A stretch of 64,000 bases of DNA. Source: Podarcis pityusensis (taxonomy: Eukaryota). Shown here one piece after another: positions 260-57,055 of the stretch. The notes below the pieces were generated by a model. That model searched no databases and was not told the DNA's origin. It saw only the letters and a program-made list of their open reading frames with translations. Position 1 is the stretch's first letter. Each line of letters starts with the position of its first letter. The position numbers and the translations under genes were made by a program. The stretch lies in assembly GCA_964106645.2 (NCBI GenBank), contig OZ067039.1; one strand, 5' to 3'.

Positions 260-2377
260 GACTTCCGGGTTGGCGCCTCCAAGCAATGGCGGAGTTCCTC
301 CGATCGGGAGGAATTTGCTCCACGGAAATTAGGGTCTGACTGCCACGGCGAAGGCAGAGACCCACTGAAATCACAGGCGGGAGAAGCCTGTGAACTTGGG
401 ATTCGGCTGGCACCCTTTGCGCCTCCCCTACTCGCGGGGAAACCCTGATTTGGGGATCCAGAGCAAAGTGGGGTGAGTGGCGCGGTGCTTCGAATTGATT
501 GCTTCTTTCACGGAGTGAAGCCGCATCGCTGTTGCCGGAGAGCGCTGACTTTTTCCTGTGGACAATTGGATTTTAAACAACTACCCGTGAGTAGAACGGA
601 AAATTAGATCCTTAAATTCATTAATTTGGCATCGAAACGGGAAGGTTCTAAACAGGAAGTCCGCCTTCCTTTTTTGTAAACAGATTGAAGCAAAGAAGTT
701 GCAAGTTAAAGCCTTGGAAAGTTTATTTTTGTAAAGGATTAAATCTCCATCAGTTAAAACTATTAAACCCCCCTTGGAAGCAGGAGAAGAGGGGGGAAAT
801 TTTGGACCTAGTGAGCCTGCAGGAGAGAGTGAAAAACCAAATTACCACTGCTCCGAACCTGGAAATGGGCTGCCAGAAAGAGTGACGTTTTTTGACAGCT
901 AGCAATAAGAGAAATATATTGTTTCCATTGTACTCATCTGCGTTTAAAAAGTAGGAAAAGAAACTCTCTTTATAGTTTAAACTGTGTTTGAAAGGATTGA
1001 TACAAGTGGAGACTGTTTCCCTCTAGAGGGAGCTTTTGAAACAGTTACAAGAGTGGAGCTGGGGTTTTTCCAGTTGCAAGATAAGAACTGTGTGAAATAG
1101 AGATCGACCTTGGACTTTAAGAATGTTGACAGAAGGAGCCTTAGTGACTGTATTATGTAAGATAAGCTATTCGTTGGAACAGCTCCACAAGAAGACGGAC
1201 GCTATGAATACCAAACTTGAGAACTTGGGACAAAAAGTGACTAATTTGGAACAAAAAGTGACCATTAATACAGAAATTGTTCAGGATTTGACACAGGAAC
1301 CTACTTTGACAGGACAAACTGGGGAGAAGACGAAGGAGAATGTTCGTGTTGTTAAACCTAAAATAATACAAGTGGAAGCCCCGGTTTTACAGAGGCAAAC
1401 TGAGGACTATAAGTGGAGGCCTTTTATGAATGAATATAGAAAAAGTCAGAATTTGAAGATTGGAGTCCTGTTTGGATTGAAGAAGGAAGGTTGGATAGAC
1501 TCTTTCATGCAGAGATTTACTGACCTTTGGGTCTTGAATCTGGGTCAGGAGGTGATTGGAGTTGTGGGGGCCTTTGGATCTGGGGGAGCCTTGAAACATG
1601 ATTTGAGATATTGTATGGACACTGGTTTTAGCTGTGGAGAGTTGGTTGGTCTGTCGAGAGGGAATGGGGGTATGGTTGGGTCGGGGTCCCCCCAAGACCT
1701 GCGCTTCAGCACCCTCAGCATCAAAGAATATGAAGAAAAACTGCAGAAGGGACTTGGAAAAGATTTAAGAGCCTTGGACAGAAGATCTCCAGGTTGATGA
1801 ACTATATGGAATGGACGGAAATGACTGGCAGAATCCGAGACCAGGGAGAAGAGATGGTGGTAGAAGATTGGGAAAGTTTAAAGTTTATATATAGAAATAT
1901 TGTAAATTTAATGAGTGTTAGAAAATTGTTGGAATGAAATTTTATGGCTTTAGCAGAAATGTTATAAGGAGTTAGGTATAAATATGTATTTCAGTATTAA
2001 TGGAAAATAAGGTACAAAATATGTTAAGATATTCATAATGATAAAAATAGAGAAAGATGGAAAGGAATTGCTGAAACAAGTAATAGAAGTGGAATACAAA
2101 AAGGGAGGTGAGAGGAGGTCGATGAAATAAGGGAATGTAAGATAGAGTAATGAAATGGTATGATATATGTTTTTAAATTGTTGTTCTTTTGCTTTGTTTA
2201 GTTTAGTGTGTTAAGGTTGTGTTTTGTATTGTTTATTGTATTGTATTGTATTGTTTTTTCTTTTCTTTCTCTTTTTTTTCTTCTCTGCTCTATTTTGTCT
2301 TTTTCTTTCGCCTATTTTCTTTTTTCTTCTTTTCTTGTAAGTTTTAAAAGCAATAAAGATTATTTTTAAAAAAAAAA
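260..2377 (+). mobile_element. Non-autonomous L1-like retroelement, copy A (2118 bp) in CFAP52 intron 8, antisense to the gene
   Basis: 17-bp TSD cagaaagaacatgaaga (243-259 / 2378-2394); CpG-rich 5' end; AATAAA 2352-2357 plus A tail; single ORF; L1 ORF2 C-terminal relic. Confidence 0.85.
1123..1797 (+). CDS. 224-aa ORF of retroelement copy A; N-terminal coiled coil, function unknown
   Basis: Intact ATG to TGA; heptad pattern LEQLHKKTDAMNTKLENLGQKVTNLEQKVTINTEIVQDL; homologous frame in copy B. Confidence 0.6.
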   Translation: MLTEGALVTVLCKISYSLEQLHKKTDAMNTKLENLGQKVTNLEQKVTINTEIVQDLTQEPTLTGQTGEKTKENVRVVKPKIIQVEAPVLQRQTEDYKWRPFMNEYRKSQNLKIGVLFGLKKEGWIDSFMQRFTDLWVLNLGQEVIGVVGAFGSGGALKHDLRYCMDTGFSCGELVGLSRGNGGMVGSGSPQDLRFSTLSIKEYEEKLQKGLGKDLRALDRRSPG

Positions 2378-3242
2378 CAGAAAGAACATGAAGAAGACTG
2401 TGCATATAAATCTGTGTATAAATCTACTTGCAGTGCAGAATTTGGCAGGTGTCTAGTCATCACTGAAAGGTAAGAGAATGTGAGGGCCATATTTGCTGAA
2501 ACATCAATGAGCAAAGCAAATTTTATTGGAGAGCAGCACTAGCGAGAGTGTAACCCCCCCCCCGCCAAGCTCCTATTATGTGAGTATCCAGCTGTTTCTT
2601 TCCATTCATCCTTGCCCAAAGTATTCTATTCTCTAAATTCTCTTCTTTTCCCCAGAATGTGCCAAACCCAGAGCACTGGGATTGAATAGACCTTGGGCTT
2701 ATTAGAAAGAACCACCAACTTGAGGGTTGCTTCCAACATTATTGCTTTGCTGGGTGTGCTCACATCTTTTCTGGGAAAACTTATGTGTGCATTATGTTTT
2801 GCCATGCATCTTAACACATTGGTTTGCATGCCGATGTCTTTGAAAATAACATAAGCAGAAATGCTATGATACGTCTCTGTGCAGTGTCAGCATAGGGCGC
2901 CTTATCCAAAGCTCCAAGGCAGAGCTATTGTAACCATGCAGAGAAAGCAGAGAGAAAGCCTACAAAGAATCAGATAGTAAAACCACAACCTGGTGCACAC
3001 CAGATGTTTAAGACTACAACCCTCCAACCCCATTCCGTTGCTTTCTTGTCTGTCCTGCTTCCTGGAATTTCCTGCAGGCTAGAGCCTACAGTTTACTAGC
3101 TGGTTTTGTTAACCCTAAGTGCCCCCCTTTGCAAATCAGTGAACATACAGGACCATCCAAAAGATTAAGATTGCTGCCTACCAAACTCACTGTACCTTGT
3201 ACATATATGCAGGATTAACAAAATTCTTTGGATCATACTTAC

Positions 3243-15124: not shown

Positions 15125-15990
15125 CTGGAACACACAAAAATAAGTATCAGCATAGTAACAACACTTAGGTCAGTTCCAAAACATGTGATGTGAAAGATAC
15201 TGGAACAAAACAAAACCTGAAATTTAAAAAGCCATAAACAACTCATCTTAAACAGCCCTATGGATCAGCTACAGGCTTACTGAGTAAGAGAGCTTGCTGA
15301 ATCAGTTACCTAACACAAGCATATCTCACTTTAAAGGCAAATGGCAGGGCCAAGAAGAATGTACCAACACAAGGCAGAAGTGCTGAAAAACATGAATGGT
15401 TTGACGTGATCCATATTTTTAAAGCATTGTCAAGTTTCTATTCAGTCTTCAGTCTAGGTGTTTACACAGTAATTAAGCAACACTGTTGGCTTCCATATAA
15501 GGAAGTAAAAGTTTCTAAGGCAGAGATGGCTAACCTGTGGGCCTCCAGATACTTTTAGAGGTCCAACTCTCATCAGCTGCAGGCAGCATGGTCAGGAATG
15601 CTGGGAGCTGTAAGCCAACATGGAGAACCACAGGTTAGACACTCTTGCTTGAAGTGATTTGCTCAGGGCCACATGGTATGCTATGAAGTAAATCAGAAAT
15701 TCAACATCTTCCTTGTCGTTTAAAATTTGGCTTGCAGCATCCCCCTCCGAATTGCATGTTTACAACTGCACTGGGCCCACATGAAAGTAAATAAAACAAG
15801 GTTATTCAGAGGTATTGCTCATGGGTGTAATGTTATGAGACCTAAACCAGTAGACACGACACAGCCTAAAGGCTAAACAACCAGGCCAGTATTGAGAAAC
15901 CAGATATCAGAACCATGCTTTTGCTAGGTCTTTGTTTGCAGCACCCACTGGGTGTCCAATACATTTTTTAAAAGGTGTCCTTTTATGCAC

Positions 15991-16190
15991 CTTGAATCCC
16001 ATGAATGTGATCTGTCCAGAAGCCACATAGGATCCACTTGAAGAAACCGTGACACAGGAGACATTGTTGGTGTGACCGTGTAGAAAAGCCTGAGTGCGAA
16101 TATTTATGCCTTGGACAATGACTGTGCAGCCCAAAGGGTAGATGAGGTGCTCTCGATCTGGGTGGCAGATGAGGCCAAAGGGTACATGCC
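15991..16190 (-). CDS. CFAP52: CFAP52 exon 2 (200 nt)
   Basis: ttacag acceptor; GHVPFGLICHPDREHLIYPLGCTV...SGQITFMGFK; donor GTGCAT. Confidence 0.95.
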
Positions 16191-17798
16191 CTGTAAGCAA
16201 AGGAAGGACATGAAAGAGAAAGTCAGAGTCATGTTCTAGGGAACTCTGAGCATTAGTTAGCTGCACTGAGGTGAGGGAGGGTTCTTCTTAGATACCTTCT
16301 ACTGTCCTTTCCACATGCAGTAAATGACAGTTCGTGATAATACCGTATGAGCACAGGATGTCTGTTCTATGCTAACCCACGCTGCTCAGAATACAGACTG
16401 CTCTGCACTTCACAAGTGTTTGATCATGCTTCCTGCCACTCAGATTTTCTCCCAATCTCTCATTCCACTCTGCTCTTCCTAGGCATTAGGGAATATACTG
16501 AACTGAATACAGAGTTTGATCTAGCCTAAAGTTTTAAGGCAGAACTCTGTGCTCAGACCCTTTTTGATCCATACAGATTGGCTCCCAGTGCGCCCTACCT
16601 TTGGGCAGAGATCTAAGAGATAGAAGGTTGTGGTTCTCAGTTGCTTTAAATATTTAACCTAATTTTTTCCCCCAGTTATGGCTTCTGGGAGAATGCTGAA
16701 GGAGCTCCCATTCCACAGTCTGAACCGCAACGGGATTGCTGAAAAACTTAGATGCTCAAATCTTTTCCTGCAACTCTGTGCTTCCTCCAAATCAAAACGC
16801 ACAAGTCTCACTCACTCTGTGAACTGAACTCTACATTTTATGTCCCCACTAAACCCTTTAAAATGCAACTATTGTACTTTCCGTAAAAAAAATGCCTAGT
16901 CGCCAATGCTGGTTTTCCATTGTTTGCTTTTCATGGAAAGTTCCCCAAGGTGAGCAAGTATTCTGAACTGAAGCTCCTCCTTTAATATATTACAAACTTA
17001 CAGAGAATGCCTTCAGCCAGAGAGGGCATCTGGTTTGCTTCCATGAGGACTTTAAAAGCACGCCAAATAAAGCCCAGCAACTGATCACTCCTCCATATCC
17101 AGACCCCTGAACCAACTCACTTCTCATTTCTTGGTACTGCACCCTAAAGACTCCACTAGACCGTAAACAAAGCTCACCGAGGTTACATCCCAGAACGTTA
17201 TTTTATTTTTGTGTGTTGGTTAGACTTTCCCCTTGGTATGCTCAGAGCAACTAACAAAATAACCATTGCACAAAACAGTTACAGCAGTTTGGTATAAACC
17301 CGTAAGAGGCACAAGCTTTGTCACAGGAAAGCTTATTCTTGATTGAGAGACTTGGAAAACTGGATTTGGCCACTTCTCTCGGCCGCTGTCAATTATACGT
17401 CTTGCTGCTGCAGCAAGAATGGAAAGAGGAAATGTAGGGATGGAAATGGGAAAGCTAGATTTATTAGCACTACCCCCCCCCTTCCCCACAACTGGCGGGT
17501 AAAGTACGGTATATGCACGTGCAAAAGTTTTTTTTTTTTTTAATACTTATATCTCGCCATTCCACAGTTCTGAGAGGCGGTTTTGAAAGCCACAGCTAGG
17601 AAAGAAGGCAGGTGCCCTTGAGCATGGAGTAAGACGGCCCTTCACCAGCTTCCGAAACCGGGGCGTCCCACTTCTCCAGGCACCCGACTTTGAGCCCCGG
17701 CACCTTTTCTTCCAGCGAGCGAGCACTCAGCGCCCCTGCCCCCTTCACCTCACTCAGGCACAGGCGACAACCTCCCCGCCCCTCTTCTCGCCTGGTAC

Positions 17799-18463: not shown

Positions 18464-20339
18464 CATAGCTGTCAACTTACAGATTTGAAAATAAGGGACC
18501 AGCAGCCTTGAAAATAAGGGACCAGCAGCCAAAATATGGGACCTGCAGCCTCACCTGTTCCAGGCACTCCAGTCTTCCTGTCCTCCTGCAGTCTGGTCAA
18601 ACTCATGCTGGTAGCTTCGAGAACACTGTCCAACCAACTTTGTAACCAGAGATTCAACTGAATAGAATCTGAATCACATGCACCACAAGGCCTATGCAAC
18701 CTCAGCTTAAGATGGCTCCCCGGCCTGGCTTTGCACTGCAAAGTTTGCAGCAGCACGTGCAACAAAATGGCGTCCAACATTCAAAAAACTCCTCAGCTTG
18801 CATTAACTAGCCACACACAAGGCATGCAAGCTCCACCCCCCAGTCATTCTTAGACTTCTTATTGGGTGAGCAACACAGCCAAGCAACACAGTTGGAGCCT
18901 CCCTCCTCCCTGGCCAGCAGGGAGGGAGGGAGATGAGCTGCTTCCTTTGAAATTTAAGGGACATCATTTAAGGGACAGATGGCCAAGCATGCAAAAGGAA
19001 GGGAGATAGTAGTAATGGGGGACTTCAATTACCCGGATATTTGACAGAATTACAAGCCTGGTAGATGAAGGGAACGCAGTGGATGTAGCCTACCTTGATT
19101 TCAGCAAGGCATTTGACAAGGTGCCCCATGATATTCTTGTAAAGAAGCTGGTAAAATGCGGTCTTGACTATGCTACCACTCAGTGGATTTGTAACTGGCT
19201 GACTGACCGAACCCAAAGGGTGCTCATCAATGGTTCCTCTTCATCCTGGAGAAGAGTGACTAGTGGGGTGCCACAGGGTTCTGTCTTGGGCCCGGTCTTA
19301 TTCAACATCTTTATCAACGACTTGGATGATGGACTCAAGGGCATCCTGATCAAATTTGCAGATGACACCAAATTGGGAGGGGTGGCTAACACCCCAGAGG
19401 ACAGGATCACACTTCAAAATGACCTTGACAGATTAGAGAACTGGGCCAAAACAAACAAGATGAATTTTAACAGGGAGAAATGTAAAGTATTGCACTTGGG
19501 CAAAAAAAATGAGAGGCACAAATACAAGATGGGTGACACCTGGCTTGAGAGCAGTACATGTGAAAAGGATCTAGGAGTCTTGGTTGACCACGAACTTGAC
19601 ATGAGCCAACAGTGTGACGCGGCAGCTAAAAAAGCCAATGCAATTCTGGGCTGCATCAATAGGAGTATAGCATCTAGATCAAGGGAAGTAATAGTGCCAC
19701 TGTATTCTGCTCTGGTCAGACCTCACCTGGAGTACTGTGTCCAGTTCTGGGCACCACAGTTCAAGAAGGACACTGACAAACTGGAACGGGTCCAGAGGAG
19801 GGCAACCAAAATGGTCAAAGGCCTGGAAACGATGCCTTATGAGGAATGGCTAAGGGAGCTGGGCATGTTTAGCATGGAGAAGAGGAGGTTAAGGGGTGAT
19901 ATGATAGCCATGTTCAAATATATAAAAGGATGTCACATAGAGGAGGGAGAAAGGTTTTCTGCTGCTCCAGAGAAGCGGACACGGAGCAATGGATCCAAAC
20001 TACAAGAAAGAAGATTCCACCTAAACATTAGGAAGAACTTCCTGACAGTAAGAGCTGTTTGACAGTGGAATTTGCTGCCAAGGAGTGTGGTGGAGTCTCC
20101 TTCTTTGGAGGTCTTTAAGCAGAGGCTTGACAACCATATGTCAGGAGTGCTCTGATGGTGTTTCCTGCTTGGCAGGGGGTTGGACTCGATGGCCCTTGTG
20201 GTCTCTTCCAACTCTATGATTCTATGATTCTATGATTCTAAGGGACATTTAAGGGACATCCATCAATAAGGGACAGCAGCAGGACATGGCGCTGGAATAA
20301 GAGACTGTCCCTTCAAATAAGGGACACTTGACAGCTATG
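18464..20339. mobile_element. hAT non-autonomous DNA transposon hosting a CR1 insertion
   Basis: TIR catagctgtcaa / ttgacagctatg; perfect 8-bp TSD gttaggct; repeated AAGGGAC subterminal motifs. Confidence 0.85.
18978..20238 (+). mobile_element. CR1 LINE, 5'-truncated and internally deleted; RT fragment ORF 19079-20062
   Basis: [18 protein letters not shown] and FADD RT motifs; (ATTCTATG)n 3' tail. Confidence 0.95.
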
Positions 20340-25400: not shown

Positions 25401-25702
25401 CACCTGACCTGAATATGACCAAGCTAGTGGTCATATTGGCCTTATATAGTTGCTCATATGTGTTCACAGCGCGCTGGACATATGCAAAATATGAATGAGG
25501 CATCTCACCTACTTTAACACTGTATATTGTCTTGAAGCGAAATGAACACAAGCAGAGCTGGACTGAAGTATTTCCTTTTCAGACATGGTTTGTTTGTTTG
25601 TTTGTCAGAATTGAGTCCTACGTAAAAAATAAGAATTGGAACCAAATAGTAGTTGAAAGTTAACTTGCATTTCTAATAGCTGACAAAATGTATGAACATA
25701 GG

Positions 25703-27810
25703 GGGACTTCTGGAGGTGGCGCCAACGGCAATGGCGGATTCCCTCTAATTCGGAGGGAATCTGCTCCACAGAAATTGGGTCTGACACCGCTTCGGCGCAG
25801 CGGGGACCCTTTAAATCACAGGCGGGTGAAGCCTGTGACCCTGGGACTCGGCGGGCACTGTTTGCGCCCCCCCAATCTGTAAAGGAACCCGGCAACGGGC
25901 TCCAGAACAGAGCGGGGAAGTGGCGCTGTGCTGTGAGTCGTCTGCTTCTTTTGTGGAGTGAAGCCGCGTAGCTGTTGCCGGAGAGCGCTGCCTTTTTTCC
26001 TGGACAATTCAGACTTTAAAACAAATACCCGTGAGTACTTAGAATTTGAACAAATGGGACAGTAAATGAAGATTTGTGAAAAGGACAGAATTGGACTATT
26101 AAAAAAAAAAGAAAAAAATCTATTGCATTCGGTACGGAGCGGGAAGGGCTAAACAGGAAGTCACCCTTCCGTTCTTTTGTAAATAGAACAAAGCAAAGGC
26201 AATTTACACTAGAGCTTTGAAAATCGCTTTTAAAAGAGTGGATTCCAACATTCTAAATTGGGAATATTTTTTTGGACTACTTGAAGTAGTAAAAGGAAGT
26301 TATTTTCGTCCTGATCCTGGAGCGGGGAAGTCAGGACTGACGTGAATTTATCAAGATAACTGTGTGTGACAGATAGCTAAAAGAAGAGAATCTTTGTGAC
26401 TTTACTGTTCCCTTTCGCATTTTAAAGGAATATATATGGACAAAGTATTTCAAGTATTTTGGAAATGTAGCAAAAACAAATATAAGTCTTCCCCCTAGGG
26501 GGAGCCTTTGAAACTGTAACTAATTTCAAGGACTTGACAGCTGCTACAAAATAACCGTGGGAAAGTGTGACAATGTTTTCAGAAGTTGTGGTGTGCCTGC
26601 TTTATAAAACAAATATTCTACTGGAAGAATTACATGATAAGGTGAACCGGATGGCCAATTCGACTGGAAATCTTAGACAGGCAGTCGAAGGTTTTGACCA
26701 GACTGTGGGAATATATGTGGAGTCTATCCAGGACTCAAACCAGGAGTGTGTTTTGACAGAACAGGGGTTTGTGGCATTAAATCAGGAGTGCGTCTTGACA
26801 TAACAGTCCCAACAGGAGTTTGATCCTTCGGATTTGACAAAGGAACTTGGAAAAAACCAGATCTGGGAAGGGAAAGTTTGGTGTGGTTTGGAAATGGGGG
26901 GCTGGATTGACCCCCCTATGTCGGGATATCTGGACTTTTTAAATACAGTAACAGGCTGCGATATGTTTGGAATTGTGGGGGCCCACAATTTCGGAGGGCC
27001 CTTGAAGCATGCTCTTAAATACTACATGGAACGCAGCGATGAATACGGAAAAGGGTCTGATCTGATGAGAAGGGCTAAAAACACTACTAAGTTGGAGTTA
27101 TCACGAGCAAGTGACTACAGCCACAAATATGAAGAAAAGCCGTGGAAGGGCCATGGAAGTGACCTGAGGGCCTCGGACATAAGGTCACCGGGTTAGATTG
27201 AGGAATAAGGACTGACAAATCCCGGAACCAGGAGGAAGGGACGTTGGATAAAGATTGGACTTGTTTATATGCTTTTTTCTCTCTTTTTTTAACTAATAGA
27301 ATGTTTTATAAAGTTGATGAATGATAGAATGATAGAAAAATGAATGATAGAAAAATGTTGGAAGAAATTACCTGGCTTTAGTAAAGATGCATAAAGAATT
27401 ATGAAAGAACATTATGAACACAAGAAGTTGGTAAAGTTAAGACTTAAATTTTAAACTTTAAGGTTTATTTTATTATAGAAAGACAGGATTAAATTAGTTG
27501 AGAATTCCTTTTATGTTGTTTTTTTTGAAATATGGAAAGGAAAGGATTTGCTGGGATAATTAATAACTAGAATACAAAGGAAGGGAGGAGGAGGAGGTCT
27601 AAGAAAGAAGGTAATGACAGTTAAGGATCTGAAAATAATGAATTTGTTCTGTTTTCTTTTATTTTTCTTCTGTATCTTCTATTTTCTCATATTTTTATTT
27701 TTATTTTTTGTATTTTTTGTGTGTAAGCTTTTGTATTTTTTATTTTTTGTTTTTGTGTAAGCTTTGTATTTTTTGAAATTTCAATAAACATCATTTAAAA
27801 ACAAAAAAAC
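25703..27810 (+). mobile_element. Non-autonomous L1-like retroelement, copy B (2108 bp)
   Basis: TSD caaaatgtatgaacatagg (25684-25702 / 27811-27829); 5' end alignable to copy A; T-rich 3' UTR, AATAAA and A-rich tail. Confidence 0.85.
26573..27196 (+). pseudogene. ORF of retroelement copy B with one nonsense codon (TAA 26801-26803)
   Basis: ORF-track pieces 26567-26803 and 26834-27196 are in the same frame; ends DLRASDIRSPG* like copy A DLRALDRRSPG*. Confidence 0.7.
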
Positions 27811-27947
27811 CAAAATGTATGAACATAGGAAGCCGCCTTACTCTGAGTCCGACCATTGTTCTTTGTAGCTTAGTTTTGTTTGACTCCCTAGATTTCCAGA
27901 TGGGGCATTTCCATCTCTACCTGCAGATGCCATGGATTGAATCAGGG

Positions 27948-41724: not shown

Positions 41725-42425
41725 CAGGGCCAGATTTAGGTTTGATGAGGCCCTAAGCTACTGAAGGGATGCAGGTGGCACTGTGGGTTGAACCACAGAG
41801 TCTAGGGCTTGCCGATCAGAAGGTCGGTGGTTTGAATCCCCGTGACGGGATGAGATTGCTCGGTCCCTGCTCCTGCCAACCTAGCAGTTCGAAAGCACGT
41901 CAAAGTGCAAGTAGATAAATAGGTACCGCTCTGGTGGGAAGGTAAATGGCGTTTCCGTGCGCTGCTCTGGTTCACCAGAAGCGGCTTAGTCATGCTGGCC
42001 ACATGACCTGGAAGCTGTACGCCGGCTCCCTCGGCCAGTAAAGCGAGATGAGCACCGCGCCGCAACCCCAGAGTCGTCCGCGACTGGACCTAACAGTCAG
42101 GGATCCCTTTACCTTTTAAGCTACTGAAGGTAATGGGACCCTTTATATGTCCAACTGTCCTTTGTCAACAACAAATTGCCACTGTTTTTTTTGTGTTGAA
42201 TATTTTAGGGAGCAGGCTAGCAGGCGGGGCCCATTACTTACACATCATAGGAGCCTACACAACACAAAACACTGTTGCTGTATGTAGGTTTTATTTTATT
42301 TGTTTTTTATCTTATATTTTGGAAATGTACATCCAGGTTTTTTCCCCTTTACATTTTTTGGGGGCCCTCAAGAGAGTGGGGCCCTAAGCTATAGCTTGTT
42401 TAGCTTATACATAAATCTGGCACTG
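41725..42425. mobile_element. hAT-like MITE hosting a Sauria SINE
   Basis: TIR cagggccagattta / taaatctggcactg; degenerate 8-bp TSD. Confidence 0.65.
41766..42116 (+). mobile_element. Sauria SINE
   Basis: tRNA-like head, ACCTTT tail, TSD taagctactgaagg. Confidence 0.9.
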
Positions 42426-43226: not shown

Positions 43227-44190
43227 CTGTACAGCAGACGAGAGAAGGGGAAAATAATTAATCCTGTACTGTAAATAGCTCCATAGATCCCAATCCTGAG
43301 GACAAAGATTTTTCTTCCAAAGATACTGCTAACCAAACACACAGCCAGCTCTTCATATGTTATGTCCAATGGTAGTAGACATAACAGACTGTTGTGTCAG
43401 TTCCAAAGAATGAGATCCAAAATTAGTCAAGGCAATTACTTTTTCCTACCGTTGGAGAGAACGAATGCAACAATTGGCAATGTGATATAGATTAATTCTA
43501 AAGCAGCTGATTCAGAAATATCAATTTACCAATGCCATGTGCCTTTGTGCTTCCTAAACCCCTTTGTCACTTGGGACAATCCTGGTCCTTTTTGTGCTTC
43601 TACACTGAGGCCACAATCACACCATACTGTACATTTGAAGCACTATCAGTCATGATTCCCCCCCCAAAAGATTATGGGAGCTGTAATTAGTTAAAGGTGC
43701 TGAGAGTTGTTGGGAGAGTCCTGTTCCTCTCCCAGAGCTACTATTTCCAGAGTGGTTTAACAATCAATCCCCAGGGAACTCTGCAAATTGTAATTCTAGA
43801 AAGGGAATAGGGGGCTGCTATCAACTTTCAGCACCTTTAACAAACTACAGCTCCCAGAATTCTTTAGTCGCAGGTCAGGACTGTTTAAAGTGGGGACCAC
43901 AGTGCTAGCAGGAAAAAAATCTGTATGAGATTATCCTATGGAGATTGAATGTCTCTGGTCATCTGTAGCTGTACTGTGTAGTGCTCTGTAATTGACTTAG
44001 CCGTAGTGTTTGGTGACGTCCTTCTCAAAAGAGAATGTGCAATATCTAAAGCAGAGTTGGAAGGGACCATGAGGGTCCTCTAGTCCAACCCCCTGCAATG
44101 CAGGAATCTTTTGAACCCACAACCTTGAGATTAAGAGTCTCATGTTCTACTGACTGATCTAACTGGATGATGCCTCATGGCCTTTTGTAC

Positions 44191-45223
44191 CTGTGCTGCA
44201 CTGCGGTCACTCCTTTCTCCACTAATGCCTTCCTGTTAGCCATTTGAAGGAGCCAGATTTCTTTGCGGGAGAAAAGCCGGATGCTGAACGCCTTTTCCAG
44301 AAGCTTGTCGGTGGTCATGTGCTCACGAATGCCCTGCATGAAACGCCACAAGCTCCCTTTGATATCCACCACCTCCAAGCCTTGCGAAGCCACGGACAGC
44401 TGGAACTGCTTGAGCAGGGCCAGCGCGATCCGGTAGAGGACTTTCTGCCCCTCCAGAAGGTACACGTCAAAAATGCGGATGACATAATCAAATGGGAGGC
44501 CATCGAAAAGCCAGACCAGCCAGTCGGAATACACCTCAAATATGTTGTCCGATGAGCTCGCTATCAGGCGGTGGGCAGCTGGGCAGTGTTTGTTGGCCAG
44601 GTCCCCAAAGGTCATGCATGAAGCCTCGTGGGTGAGGAAGGAGTGGTCAATGTAGGAGGTGTGGGGAGCATTGCAGTAGAGGAGCCGGCAAGTGTCCTCA
44701 AAGCACTGGCCCTCGCCTTGGCTGTAATGGAGCATCAGGGCAGTCACAGCGGGAAGCAGGGGGCAGTAGGTGATGTCGGGGTATAGGCTGGAAATGCAGA
44801 TGAGTATCCTTTTCACTGCAGTTACCCCTTCTTCAGAGAGGCAGTATTCGGGCATGATGCTTCCTTCCAGGAATTCAGGTAATGGGTCAAAGCTCTCGTT
44901 CGGGGCTTCAAACAGCTTGCTGGCAACATCTCTGTAGACTTCAGCGTCAGGGGTCATGAGCCTGCACGGTATGTGCTGGATCACATGCTGATAAGCCTGC
45001 GCCCTCAGAGCGTGACTTCCTGCCCAGCGCCCCTCCCTCCCCAGTTTTTTGAGCTCCTTCATAGACTTGCCAAACAGGTGCTCCTGACTGTCCTGCTGTT
45101 CGTTCAGCTTGGGCATCTTGTTCTGGTCCACAAATTTGCTACAGCGTAAGCAGGAGGCTGCGTCCATGTCCATCGCAACCACCAAAGGGATTTGCAAGGA
45201 GGCCTTAGATAGATCGGTGGTCT
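44191..45223 (-). CDS. TBC1D24-like: TBC1D24-like paralog, large TBC-domain exon (internal Kozak ATG at 45173)
   Basis: FVDQNKM..ELKKLGREGRWAGSHALR..IPCRLMTPDAEVY..SCMTFGDLANKHC..EGQKVLYRIAL..LLEKAFSIRLFSRKEI aligns with recalled TBC1D24; acceptor tgcttttgctccacag; donor AG|GTACAA. Confidence 0.92.
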
Positions 45224-45544
45224 CTGTGGAGCAAAAGCACCATGGTTCAGCATGATTCACATCTCACCATTGGGCAGATTGCTTAAACTGTTCCTGACAA
45301 CCATGGGTGAAAAGCACTGGGATTTTATCCGGTCTCTTGGGAGTTGCAACCACAGACAATTCCCACTTAAAATTTAAACACAAGCACCGGTCATAGTTAT
45401 CACTTGTCACCTCACAGGCTTTCATTTAGTCTTCTAGGTATTTGGGGATGCTTCCATCTCTCATGTAAATCAAAGCTATTTGCTCATCATTAGTTATAAA
45501 GGTAGAACAACAAAACATTTAAATGTGAGTAAGCATAGAACATA

Positions 45545-45901
45545 GGGACGTGGGTGGCGCTGTGGGTTAAACCACAGAGCCTAGGGCTTGCCGATCAGAA
45601 GGTCGGCGGTTCGAATCCCCGCGGCGGGGTGAGCTCCCATTGCTCTGTTCCAGCTCCTGCCAACCTAACAGTTCGAAAGCACATCAGAGGGCAAGTAGAT
45701 AAATAGGTACTGCTGTGGCGGGAAGGTAAACGGCGTTTCCGTGTGCTGCTCTGGTTTGCCAGAAGCGGCTTAGTCATGCTGGCCACATGACCCGGAAGCT
45801 GTACGCCGGCTCCCTCGGCCAATAAAGCCAGATGAGCGCCACAACCCCAGAGTCGGTCACGACTGGACCTAATGGTCAGGGGTCCCTTTACCTTTACCTT
45901 T
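45545..45901 (+). mobile_element. Sauria SINE
   Basis: gggacgtgggtggcgctgtggg head; (ACCTTT)n tail; TSD taagcataga. Confidence 0.9.
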
Positions 45902-56504: not shown

Positions 56505-56694
56505 GCTCAGCATTGTCTACACTAGTGATGGGTAACCAGTTACACCCCCCTGACTCATTTCAAGTGGCCCAGCAGATGCTGTGGCCCCACTCTTGATCTC
56601 TGGACCACACTGAGCAAGAGGGAGAAAGAAGTAAAAGAGTTACAAGCTTGCCGGCTCTGCCCTCTTTGGGTTTTGGTTGCACCTACCATTAGCT

Positions 56695-57055
56695 GGGACG
56701 CGGGTGGCGCTGTGGGTAAAACCTCAGCGCCTAGGACTTGCCGATCGTCAGGTCGGCGGTTTGAATCCCCGCGGCGGGGTGCACTCCCGTTGCTCGGTCC
56801 CAGCGCCTGCCAACCTAGCAGTTCGAAAGCACCCCTGGGTGCAAGTAGATAAATAGGGACCGCTTACTAGCGGGAAGGTAAACGGCGTTTCCGTGTGCTG
56901 CGCTGGCTCGCCAGATGCAGCTTGTCATGCTGGCCACGTGACCTGGAAGTGTCTTTGGACAGCGCTGGCCCCCGGCCTCTTAAGCGAGATGGGCGCGCAA
57001 CCCCAGAGTCGGACACGACTGGCCCGTACGGGCAGGGGTACCTTTAACTTTACCT
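56695..57055 (+). mobile_element. Sauria SINE (different subfamily)
   Basis: gggacgcgggtggcgctg head; TSD taccattagctg. Confidence 0.9.

What the first reader, a model, noticed from the sequence alone, without database searches (positions are those of the whole stretch)
26573..27196. Copy B keeps the same reading frame, start and C-terminus as copy A despite heavy amino-acid divergence
Seen: the two ORF-track pieces are one frame broken by a single TAA. That TAA sits in the second unit of a 42-nt tandem duplication (NQECVLT-E-Q vs NQECVLT-*-Q), so it looks like a GAA to TAA change after insertion. Shared blocks with copy A: GLKKEGWID / GLEMGGWID, GVVGAFGSGGALKHDLRYCMD / GIVGAHNFGGPLKHALKYYME, YEEKLQKGLGKDLRALDRRSPG* / YEEKPWKGHGSDLRASDIRSPG*. 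Net indels preserve the frame. Inference: the protein was needed in the source elements of both subfamilies and evolves fast, as expected under genetic conflict.
Basis: partly seen in the sequence, partly recalled or inferred. Interest (0 to 1): 0.7.

Follow-up and report, generated by a model that had tools for sequence, protein, structure and literature searches.

The report
Lizard half-L1 with eroding open frame
This is one broken copy of a parasitic, shortened jumping gene that has kept one reading frame open through all its sampled subfamilies while most of the protein decays, likely because being translated, and predicted docking by a short front helix, helps it borrow the copying machinery of intact L1 elements.

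Summary
Observation confirmed. The frame lies in a 2.1-kb non-autonomous L1 derivative (5'UTR, one ORF, last ~40 codons of ORF2, 3'UTR, poly-A, 19-nt TSD) with over a thousand copies in a lizard-type genome. The TAA is private to this copy. The ORF is the parent L1's ORF1p minus its first 51 codons, 42 codons of the RRM and its end; start and stop shared by A and B are inherited deletion junctions. Frame maintenance is real: 18 of 18 subfamily sequences are open, against 20-87 expected stops, and ORF indels net to multiples of three. Fast evolution is relaxation, not conflict: omega about 0.8-0.9 against 0.2 in autonomous ORF1, with no positively selected class. Only the first ~53 codons (coiled coil) show significant purifying selection (omega 0.5-0.6). 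Best reading: a HAL1-like element whose translation is selected in cis, the coiled coil likely docking on helper ORF1p; selection on translation alone is the close rival. Neither is tested.

The parts
25684..25702 (.). left target-site duplication (19 nt)
   Evidence: exact repeat at 25684 and 27811
25703..26572 (+). L1-derived 5'UTR; the first ~430 nt are the slowest part of the element, likely the internal promoter (inferred)
   Evidence: 82-83% identity over ~340 nt to the 5' end of full-length L1 copies; composition-corrected rate 0.23-0.60 in the first 430 nt vs 0.79-1.08 further on
26573..27196 (+). eroded ORF1p-derived frame, 207 codons, broken in this copy
   Evidence: homology to L1 ORF1p shown through copy A (31% over 190 aa, E 4e-17) and the ladder of subfamilies
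26573..26731 (+). N-terminal coiled-coil remnant (about 53 codons), the only region with significant purifying selection
   Evidence: omega 0.49 and 0.61 on internal branches; predicted helix 2-55, block pLDDT 56-84, rest of model below 50
26738..26806 (+). 27-nt direct repeat at 42-nt spacing (26738-26764 and 26780-26806), specific to subfamily B
   Evidence: alignment
26801..26803 (+). private TAA (G>T at 26801)
27128..27196 (+). slow C-terminal block ending at the ORF1/ORF2-tail deletion junction
   Evidence: 15 of 20 residues identical A vs B against 33% overall; rate 0.42, third positions 0.59; junction
27197..27810 (+). decayed ORF2 3' end, L1 3'UTR, AATAAA at 27783 and A-rich tail
   Evidence: copy A matches the last ~40 codons of L1 ORF2 at 77%; B aligns to A and matches the L1 3'UTR more weakly
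27811..27829 (.). right target-site duplication
260..2378 (+). copy A: full-length member of another subfamily, open ORF 1123-1797, 16-nt TSD at 244 and 2379

Best explanation
The frame is the shrunken ORF1 of a non-autonomous, L1-derived retrotransposon family whose source copies kept it open while most of the protein drifted, likely because the element's RNA must be translated so that the short N-terminal coiled coil can dock, as predicted, on ORF1p of an intact L1 and so borrow its machinery. Shown: anatomy, descent from one L1 family by three deletions, loss of part of the RNA-binding domain, strong depletion of stops and frameshifts on source lineages, near-neutral amino-acid change outside the first ~53 codons. 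Inferred: transcription from the retained 5'UTR; translation; co-assembly of the nascent helix with helper ORF1p. With the RRM cut, the ribosome would be the only link between the protein and its own RNA, which would explain selection in cis; the ~150 downstream codons would act as a spacer that keeps the nascent chain attached and the stop near the 3' end (less nonsense-mediated decay). The window's copy is likely dead as a source.
For: Anatomy and TSDs. Parent ORF1p model shows coiled coil, RRM and CTD and matches human ORF1p (E 4e-8). Deletions: 156 nt with the first ATG, 42 codons covering an RRM strand and helix, 3' join to the ORF2 tail. 17 of 17 cluster sequences open (one is a single copy, one rests on two), plus K; an independent sample gave two more subfamilies, both open (11-copy majority; 2 of 2 copies). 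Expected stops 20-87, seen 0. Gap events 2.6 per 100 substitutions in the ORF vs 12-13 in UTRs; 20 of 31 vs 25 of 207 are multiples of three (p 1e-9); private ORF indels 13 of 46. Omega: autonomous ORF1 0.195; this family 0.76-0.88; codons 1-25 0.49 (p 0.0004), 26-53 0.61 (p 0.013), later regions 0.75-0.99, none significant; holds without CpG codons (0.48). Length changes inside the coiled coil are 7 codons. Precedent: ORF1-only elements are proposed to multimerise with helper proteins (PMC5786205, passage); truncated human ORF1p acts in trans through its coiled coil (PMC5605252, abstract and passages).
Against: No expression, translation or binding was shown. Coiled-coil constraint is modest and partly comes from raised synonymous rate; hydrophobic residues are not kept significantly better there than elsewhere (5 of 11 vs 10 of 35, p 0.25). 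Seven-codon indels may reflect slippage on heptad-coding repeats, as the parent family varies the same way. Within subfamilies, stop depletion is not shown: 3 stops among 236 shared non-CpG changes vs 21 among 860 private ones (p 0.45). In subfamily K, 8 of 20 copies are frameshifted at a G-run near codon 100, four with the same one-base loss, though not as one clade, so some broken copies may have been sources. In human cells, trans-mobilisation of ORF1-only RNA is described as needing a functional ORF1p (PMC11260458, passage), and truncated ORF1p suppressed rather than used L1.
Confidence: 0.55

Rival explanations
1. Translation alone is selected: the protein is inert, and an open frame ending near the 3' end likely protects the RNA from nonsense-mediated decay or keeps it on ribosomes where L1 ORF2p is made.
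For: About 82% of codons fit omega = 1; the frame is kept through regions with no amino-acid constraint; subfamily B replaced TGA by TAG at the same codon after a short deletion; net charge drifted from +7 to about -10. UPF1 knockdown raises L1 mRNA (PMC8535693, passage); ribosome association is the model for Alu (PMC11260458, passages).
Against: Omega below 1 in the first 53 codons and on shallow source branches overall (0.66, p 4e-5; 0.63 by counting) implies some selection on the protein, although avoiding toxic or aggregating products could also give this.
Confidence: 0.3
2. Genetic conflict: the protein is functional throughout and is driven to change by host restriction or competition with L1.
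For: Deep-branch omega (0.92) exceeds shallow-branch omega (0.66; p 0.026), a McDonald-Kreitman-like contrast; the stem of subfamily B is long.
Against: No omega>1 class (M1a/M2a LRT 0.006, M8a/M8 0.48); the B stem is as long in the UTRs and has omega 0.67; structural parts are deleted again and again; the lizard coiled coil is described as conserved, with no sign of an arms race (PMC5381506, passages).
Confidence: 0.1
3. No selection: the frame survived by chance or by the mutation spectrum.
For: Sense-strand C/T transitions run about 2-6 times faster than A/G ones, which helps purine-rich blocks survive (A vs B differences at 44% of purine and 54% of pyrimidine sites).
Against: 20-87 stops expected, none seen; the two other sense frames carry 10-23 stops each; the indel contrast with the UTRs.
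Confidence: 0.03

Closest known systems
HAL1 (half-L1) of mammals (PMC5753468, PMC13756887, PMC8535693: passages; Bao and Jurka 2010 not held, recalled only)
   Same: Non-autonomous L1 derivative with the L1 5'UTR, only an ORF1-derived frame, L1 3' end, poly-A and TSDs; mostly full-length copies.
   Different: Independent origin from a lizard L1; the ORF1 lacks its N-terminus, 42 codons of the RRM and increasing parts of the CTD, and evolves near neutrally. The passages seen describe HAL1 from mammals as encoding ORF1p.
ORF1-present bipartite non-autonomous LINEs: HeT-A, Ag-Sponge, HAL1 (PMC5786205, passage)
   Same: 5' and 3' ends of the parent LINE plus an ORF1-type frame proposed to multimerise with helper proteins.
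   Different: Here only the first ~53 codons show constraint, while the whole frame stays open.
Lizard clade L1 with conserved ORF1 coiled coil (PMC5381506, passages)
   Same: Parent and likely helper type: 5'UTR, ORF1 (coiled coil, RRM, CTD), ORF2; at least four ORF1 families found in this genome.
   Different: Autonomous; ORF1 omega 0.2.
SpIREs and ORF1mneoI reporter RNAs of human L1 (PMC5860796, PMC11260458, passages)
   Same: Internally deleted or ORF1-only L1 RNAs mobilised in trans.
   Different: SpIREs are described as dead ends and ORF1mneoI as needing functional ORF1p; this family founded many subfamilies with a crippled ORF1.

Membership tests
HAL1-type (ORF1-present non-autonomous L1 derivative) | 5' end derived from an L1 5'UTR | tested here: met
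   71-83% identity to full-length L1 5' ends; parent-type 5'UTR in L126 and L131
HAL1-type (ORF1-present non-autonomous L1 derivative) | single ORF homologous to L1 ORF1p | tested here: met
   parent ORF1p model matches human ORF1p structures
HAL1-type (ORF1-present non-autonomous L1 derivative) | no ORF2 (endonuclease, reverse transcriptase) | tested here: met
   only the last ~40 codons of ORF2 remain, behind the stop and in another frame
HAL1-type (ORF1-present non-autonomous L1 derivative) | amplified as a family with poly-A tail and variable TSDs | tested here: met
   A-tails and TSDs of about 13-25 nt in most of 60 loci; 1123 exact junction matches, 0 in the reversed control
HAL1-type (ORF1-present non-autonomous L1 derivative) | ORF kept open on source lineages | tested here: met
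HAL1-type (ORF1-present non-autonomous L1 derivative) | encodes a complete ORF1p (coiled coil + RRM + CTD) | tested here: not met
   42-codon RRM deletion in every sampled subfamily, including the least diverged; model of B has only the N-terminal helix. Hence filed as a variant that works like HAL1, not as a member of the mammalian HAL1 families.
HAL1-type (ORF1-present non-autonomous L1 derivative) | mobilised in trans by L1 ORF2p, with own ORF needed in cis | not testable with these tools
   needs a reporter assay; inferred from anatomy and selection
Autonomous L1 | intact ORF2 | tested here: not met
Protein under arms-race positive selection | codon class or branch with omega > 1 | tested here: not met

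The most novel reading that the evidence does not exclude
A retrotransposon family in which the reading frame itself is the selected trait: an ORF1 that has lost RNA binding is kept open as a translation device (ribosome tether or decay shield, with at most a five-to-seven-heptad docking helix). It would be a natural intermediate between half-L1s and protein-free SINE-like parasites, a route that L1 deletion derivatives in this genome seem to have entered more than once.
Probability: 0.4. Interest if true: 0.7.

Novelty: new variant of a known kind. Interest (0 to 1): 0.45.

Why it matters
How non-autonomous RNAs get round L1's preference for its own RNA is open for polymerase II transcripts (PMC11260458, passages). 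This family offers about twenty natural, young subfamilies forming a deletion series of ORF1p, all with the frame open. It lets one test directly whether translation, the coiled coil or RNA binding is what a parasite needs. It also warns that an open frame with fast amino-acid change in a transposon is not by itself a sign of an arms race.

Tried and rejected
Pfam gave only weak coiled-coil hits for both ORFs and for a lizard ORF1p, none for the parent ORF1p at E 0.01; PF02994 rang nowhere, controls included. The protein database search gave no hit among proteins of 123-392 aa; the Atlas gave no usable hit. A PDB sequence search did not find human ORF1p; the fold search did. Sequencing runs: no RNA holder listed, which says nothing on expression. 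RNA fold around the stop: a 6-pair hairpin, -4.7 kcal/mol, no compensatory change in 8 predicted pairs, so not claimed. Purine content does not explain the conserved blocks across windows (rho 0.33, p 0.16). Heptad a/d positions are not specially constrained by omega (0.59, p 0.095). Nine paper searches listed no description of a lizard HAL1-type family; Repbase and Dfam could not be searched, the HAL1 paper itself is not held and no supplements were read, so it may be catalogued. Rows left out of counts: clusters G (1 copy) and F2 (2 copies) were given a separate class or dropped (private counts; expected stops); three uncertain segments of B were masked; 17 of 81 motif-sampled places were L1s, other derivatives or partial copies. 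The script had an off-by-one error and was replaced.

Full report
Observation. The interval 26573-27196 is one frame from ATG to RSPG-stop with one internal TAA at 26801-26803; the blocks shared with copy A are as quoted. The stop is a G>T change private to this copy. The duplication is a 27-nt repeat at 42-nt spacing rather than a full 42-nt tandem unit.

What surrounds it. The frame sits in an element at 25703-27810 with a 19-nt TSD and an A-rich tail; copy A (260-2378) has a 16-nt TSD. Searches of the window's own 1.5-Gb genome returned full-length relatives with their own TSDs. A motif spanning the family's 3' junction has 1123 exact matches and excludes subfamilies B and K; a 5'UTR motif has 861 matches, and 64 of 81 places sampled from it were full ORF-bearing members, 33 of them intact. 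The genome reads as a lizard's from its L1, CR1 and Sauria-like repeats (recalled labels); an earlier AI note calls it a wall lizard (not checked).

Origin. Full-length 6.1-kb L1 copies share the 5' 340-450 nt (71-83%) and the 3' end. Copy A's protein aligns to their ORF1p (31% over 190 aa, E 4e-17). A closer L1 family, whose ORF1 runs into an ORF2 start, is the parent; I did not fetch its whole ORF2. Its ORF1p model has a coiled coil (54-176), an RRM and a CTD and matches human ORF1p structures (E 4e-8). Three deletions made the family: 156 nt with the first ATG, so that Met52 becomes the start; 42 codons (about residues 224-265 of the modelled copy), which remove an RRM strand and helix; and everything from the ORF1 tail to the last ~40 codons of ORF2, whose out-of-frame TGA is the stop. 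The start and C-terminus that A and B share are these inherited junctions. The least diverged subfamily found already lacks the RRM piece.

Is the frame selected? Yes. All 17 cluster sequences and subfamily K are open, with lengths 603-726 nt, all multiples of three; an independent sample added two subfamilies, both open. The tree holds about 6.4 neutral changes per codon, so 20-29 stops are expected from the empirical stop fraction and 74-87 from the model; none is seen. Between subfamilies the ORF has 2.6 gap events per 100 substitutions against 12-13 in the UTRs; 20 of 31 are multiples of three against 25 of 207, and the other 11 are split or edge gaps between sequences whose lengths differ by multiples of three; private indels in single copies are multiples of three in only 13 of 46 cases. 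Against: within subfamilies, shared stops are not significantly depleted (3 of 236 vs 21 of 860), and 8 of 20 K copies are frameshifted at one G-run, not as a clean clade.

Is the protein selected, and how? Weakly, and not positively. Omega is 0.76 (IQ-TREE) or 0.88 (own model; LRT 3.1 vs 1) against 0.195 for the same region among four autonomous ORF1 families. Site models find no class above 1 and put 82% of codons at 1. On a tree of 166 copies, omega is 0.89 on terminal, 0.66 on shallow internal (p 4e-5) and 0.92 on deep branches; spectrum-controlled counts agree (0.93 private, 0.63 shared). The deep-shallow gap (p 0.026) is the only hint of adaptive change. By region, only codons 1-25 (0.49) and 26-53 (0.61) differ from 1, also without CpG codons; part of that comes from a raised synonymous rate, and retention of hydrophobic residues is not significant. 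The predicted structure of an intact B protein is one N-terminal helix and nothing confident beyond. The C-terminal block is conserved far above the ORF average (15 of 20 vs 33%) but is slow at third positions and for 60 nt past the stop, which points to an RNA-level constraint or to exchange between subfamilies; no covarying fold was found. The ORF as a whole changes at the rate of the distal 5'UTR. The lineages change fast relative to the age of copies (1-3% from their majority sequence), with a sense-strand excess of C/T transitions that is also seen in autonomous L1, likely errors of the L1 copying cycle (inferred).

Mechanism. Shown: L1 origin, loss of ORF2 and of part of the RRM, an open frame kept by selection acting on the element's own copying success. 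Inferred: the RNA is transcribed from the retained 5'UTR and translated; the nascent helix co-assembles with helper ORF1p; since the protein can hardly bind RNA, the ribosome is the cis link, and the downstream codons are a spacer that keeps the chain attached and the stop near the 3' end. Multimerisation with helper proteins is the published proposal for HeT-A, HAL1 and Ag-Sponge (PMC5786205, passage), and truncated human ORF1p acts in trans through its coiled coil (PMC5605252, abstract and passages). Polymerase II transcripts need ORF1p as well as ORF2p (PMC2666806, abstract). I give this 0.55, translation-only 0.3, conflict 0.1 and chance 0.03. Neither binding nor expression was tested.

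Comparison and novelty. It works like HAL1 and meets every structural test except a complete ORF1p, so it is a new variant of a known kind. Papers seen: passages of PMC5753468, PMC5381506, PMC8535693, PMC11260458, PMC13756887, PMC5860796, PMC5786205; abstract and passages of PMC5605252; abstract of PMC2666806. Bao and Jurka 2010 was not held; my recall that it reports faster ORF1 evolution in HAL1 than in L1 is unchecked and would make part of this pattern known. Nine searches listed no lizard family of this kind; repeat databases and supplements were not seen.

Verdict. Real feature, first reading half right: frame selection yes, genetic conflict no. Interest 0.45.

Noticed in passing
L132, L266-L285 (e.g. 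L132 about 1195-2000): A second, independent ~2.4-kb non-autonomous family from the same parent L1: ORF1 coiled coil fused in frame to a post-RT piece of ORF2, 269 codons open in the majority sequence. In the ORF2-derived part 39 of 73 differences from one parent copy are A>G, against 8 of 69 in the ORF1 part, which looks like an ADAR hyper-editing event (inferred); A>G cannot create stops, so the open frame is weaker evidence of selection here.
   Followed up: partly
L126, L211, L213: A possible third derivative type: ORF1 coiled coil fused in frame to the ORF2 C-terminal segment in L126 and L211; L213 shares the N-terminal variants but is interrupted.
   Followed up: no
parent 5'UTR/ORF1 boundary, L187-L215: The 156-nt founding deletion can be read as GT...AG, as in spliced L1 RNAs (SpIRE-like), but the acceptor has no pyrimidine tract; one base of microhomology fits equally.
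   Followed up: partly
all L1-type loci sampled: Sense-strand T>C and C>T changes outnumber A>G and G>A per site by about 2-fold in private changes and more in shared ones, in this family and in autonomous L1.
   Followed up: partly
window 25684-27840: One contig of run X13 joins the two flanks without the element, i.e. an empty site in a related organism; the insertion is recent.
   Followed up: no
window 27191-27200: Subfamily B lost the ancestral TGA by a short deletion yet has a TAG at the same codon.
   Followed up: partly
window 19016-20062 (+): 348-codon open reverse-transcriptase fragment (RVT_1, E 1e-24), CR1-like by recall.
   Followed up: no
window 44175-45263 (-) and 15907-16287 (-): Host exons: a RabGAP-TBC domain exon (E 2.5e-23) and a WD40 exon.
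   Followed up: no
window 41765-42116, 45544-45895, 56694-57051; 9592, 34024, 47665, 49429: Other dispersed repeats: three ~350-nt SINE-like copies (Sauria-like by recall) and a four-copy family.
   Followed up: no
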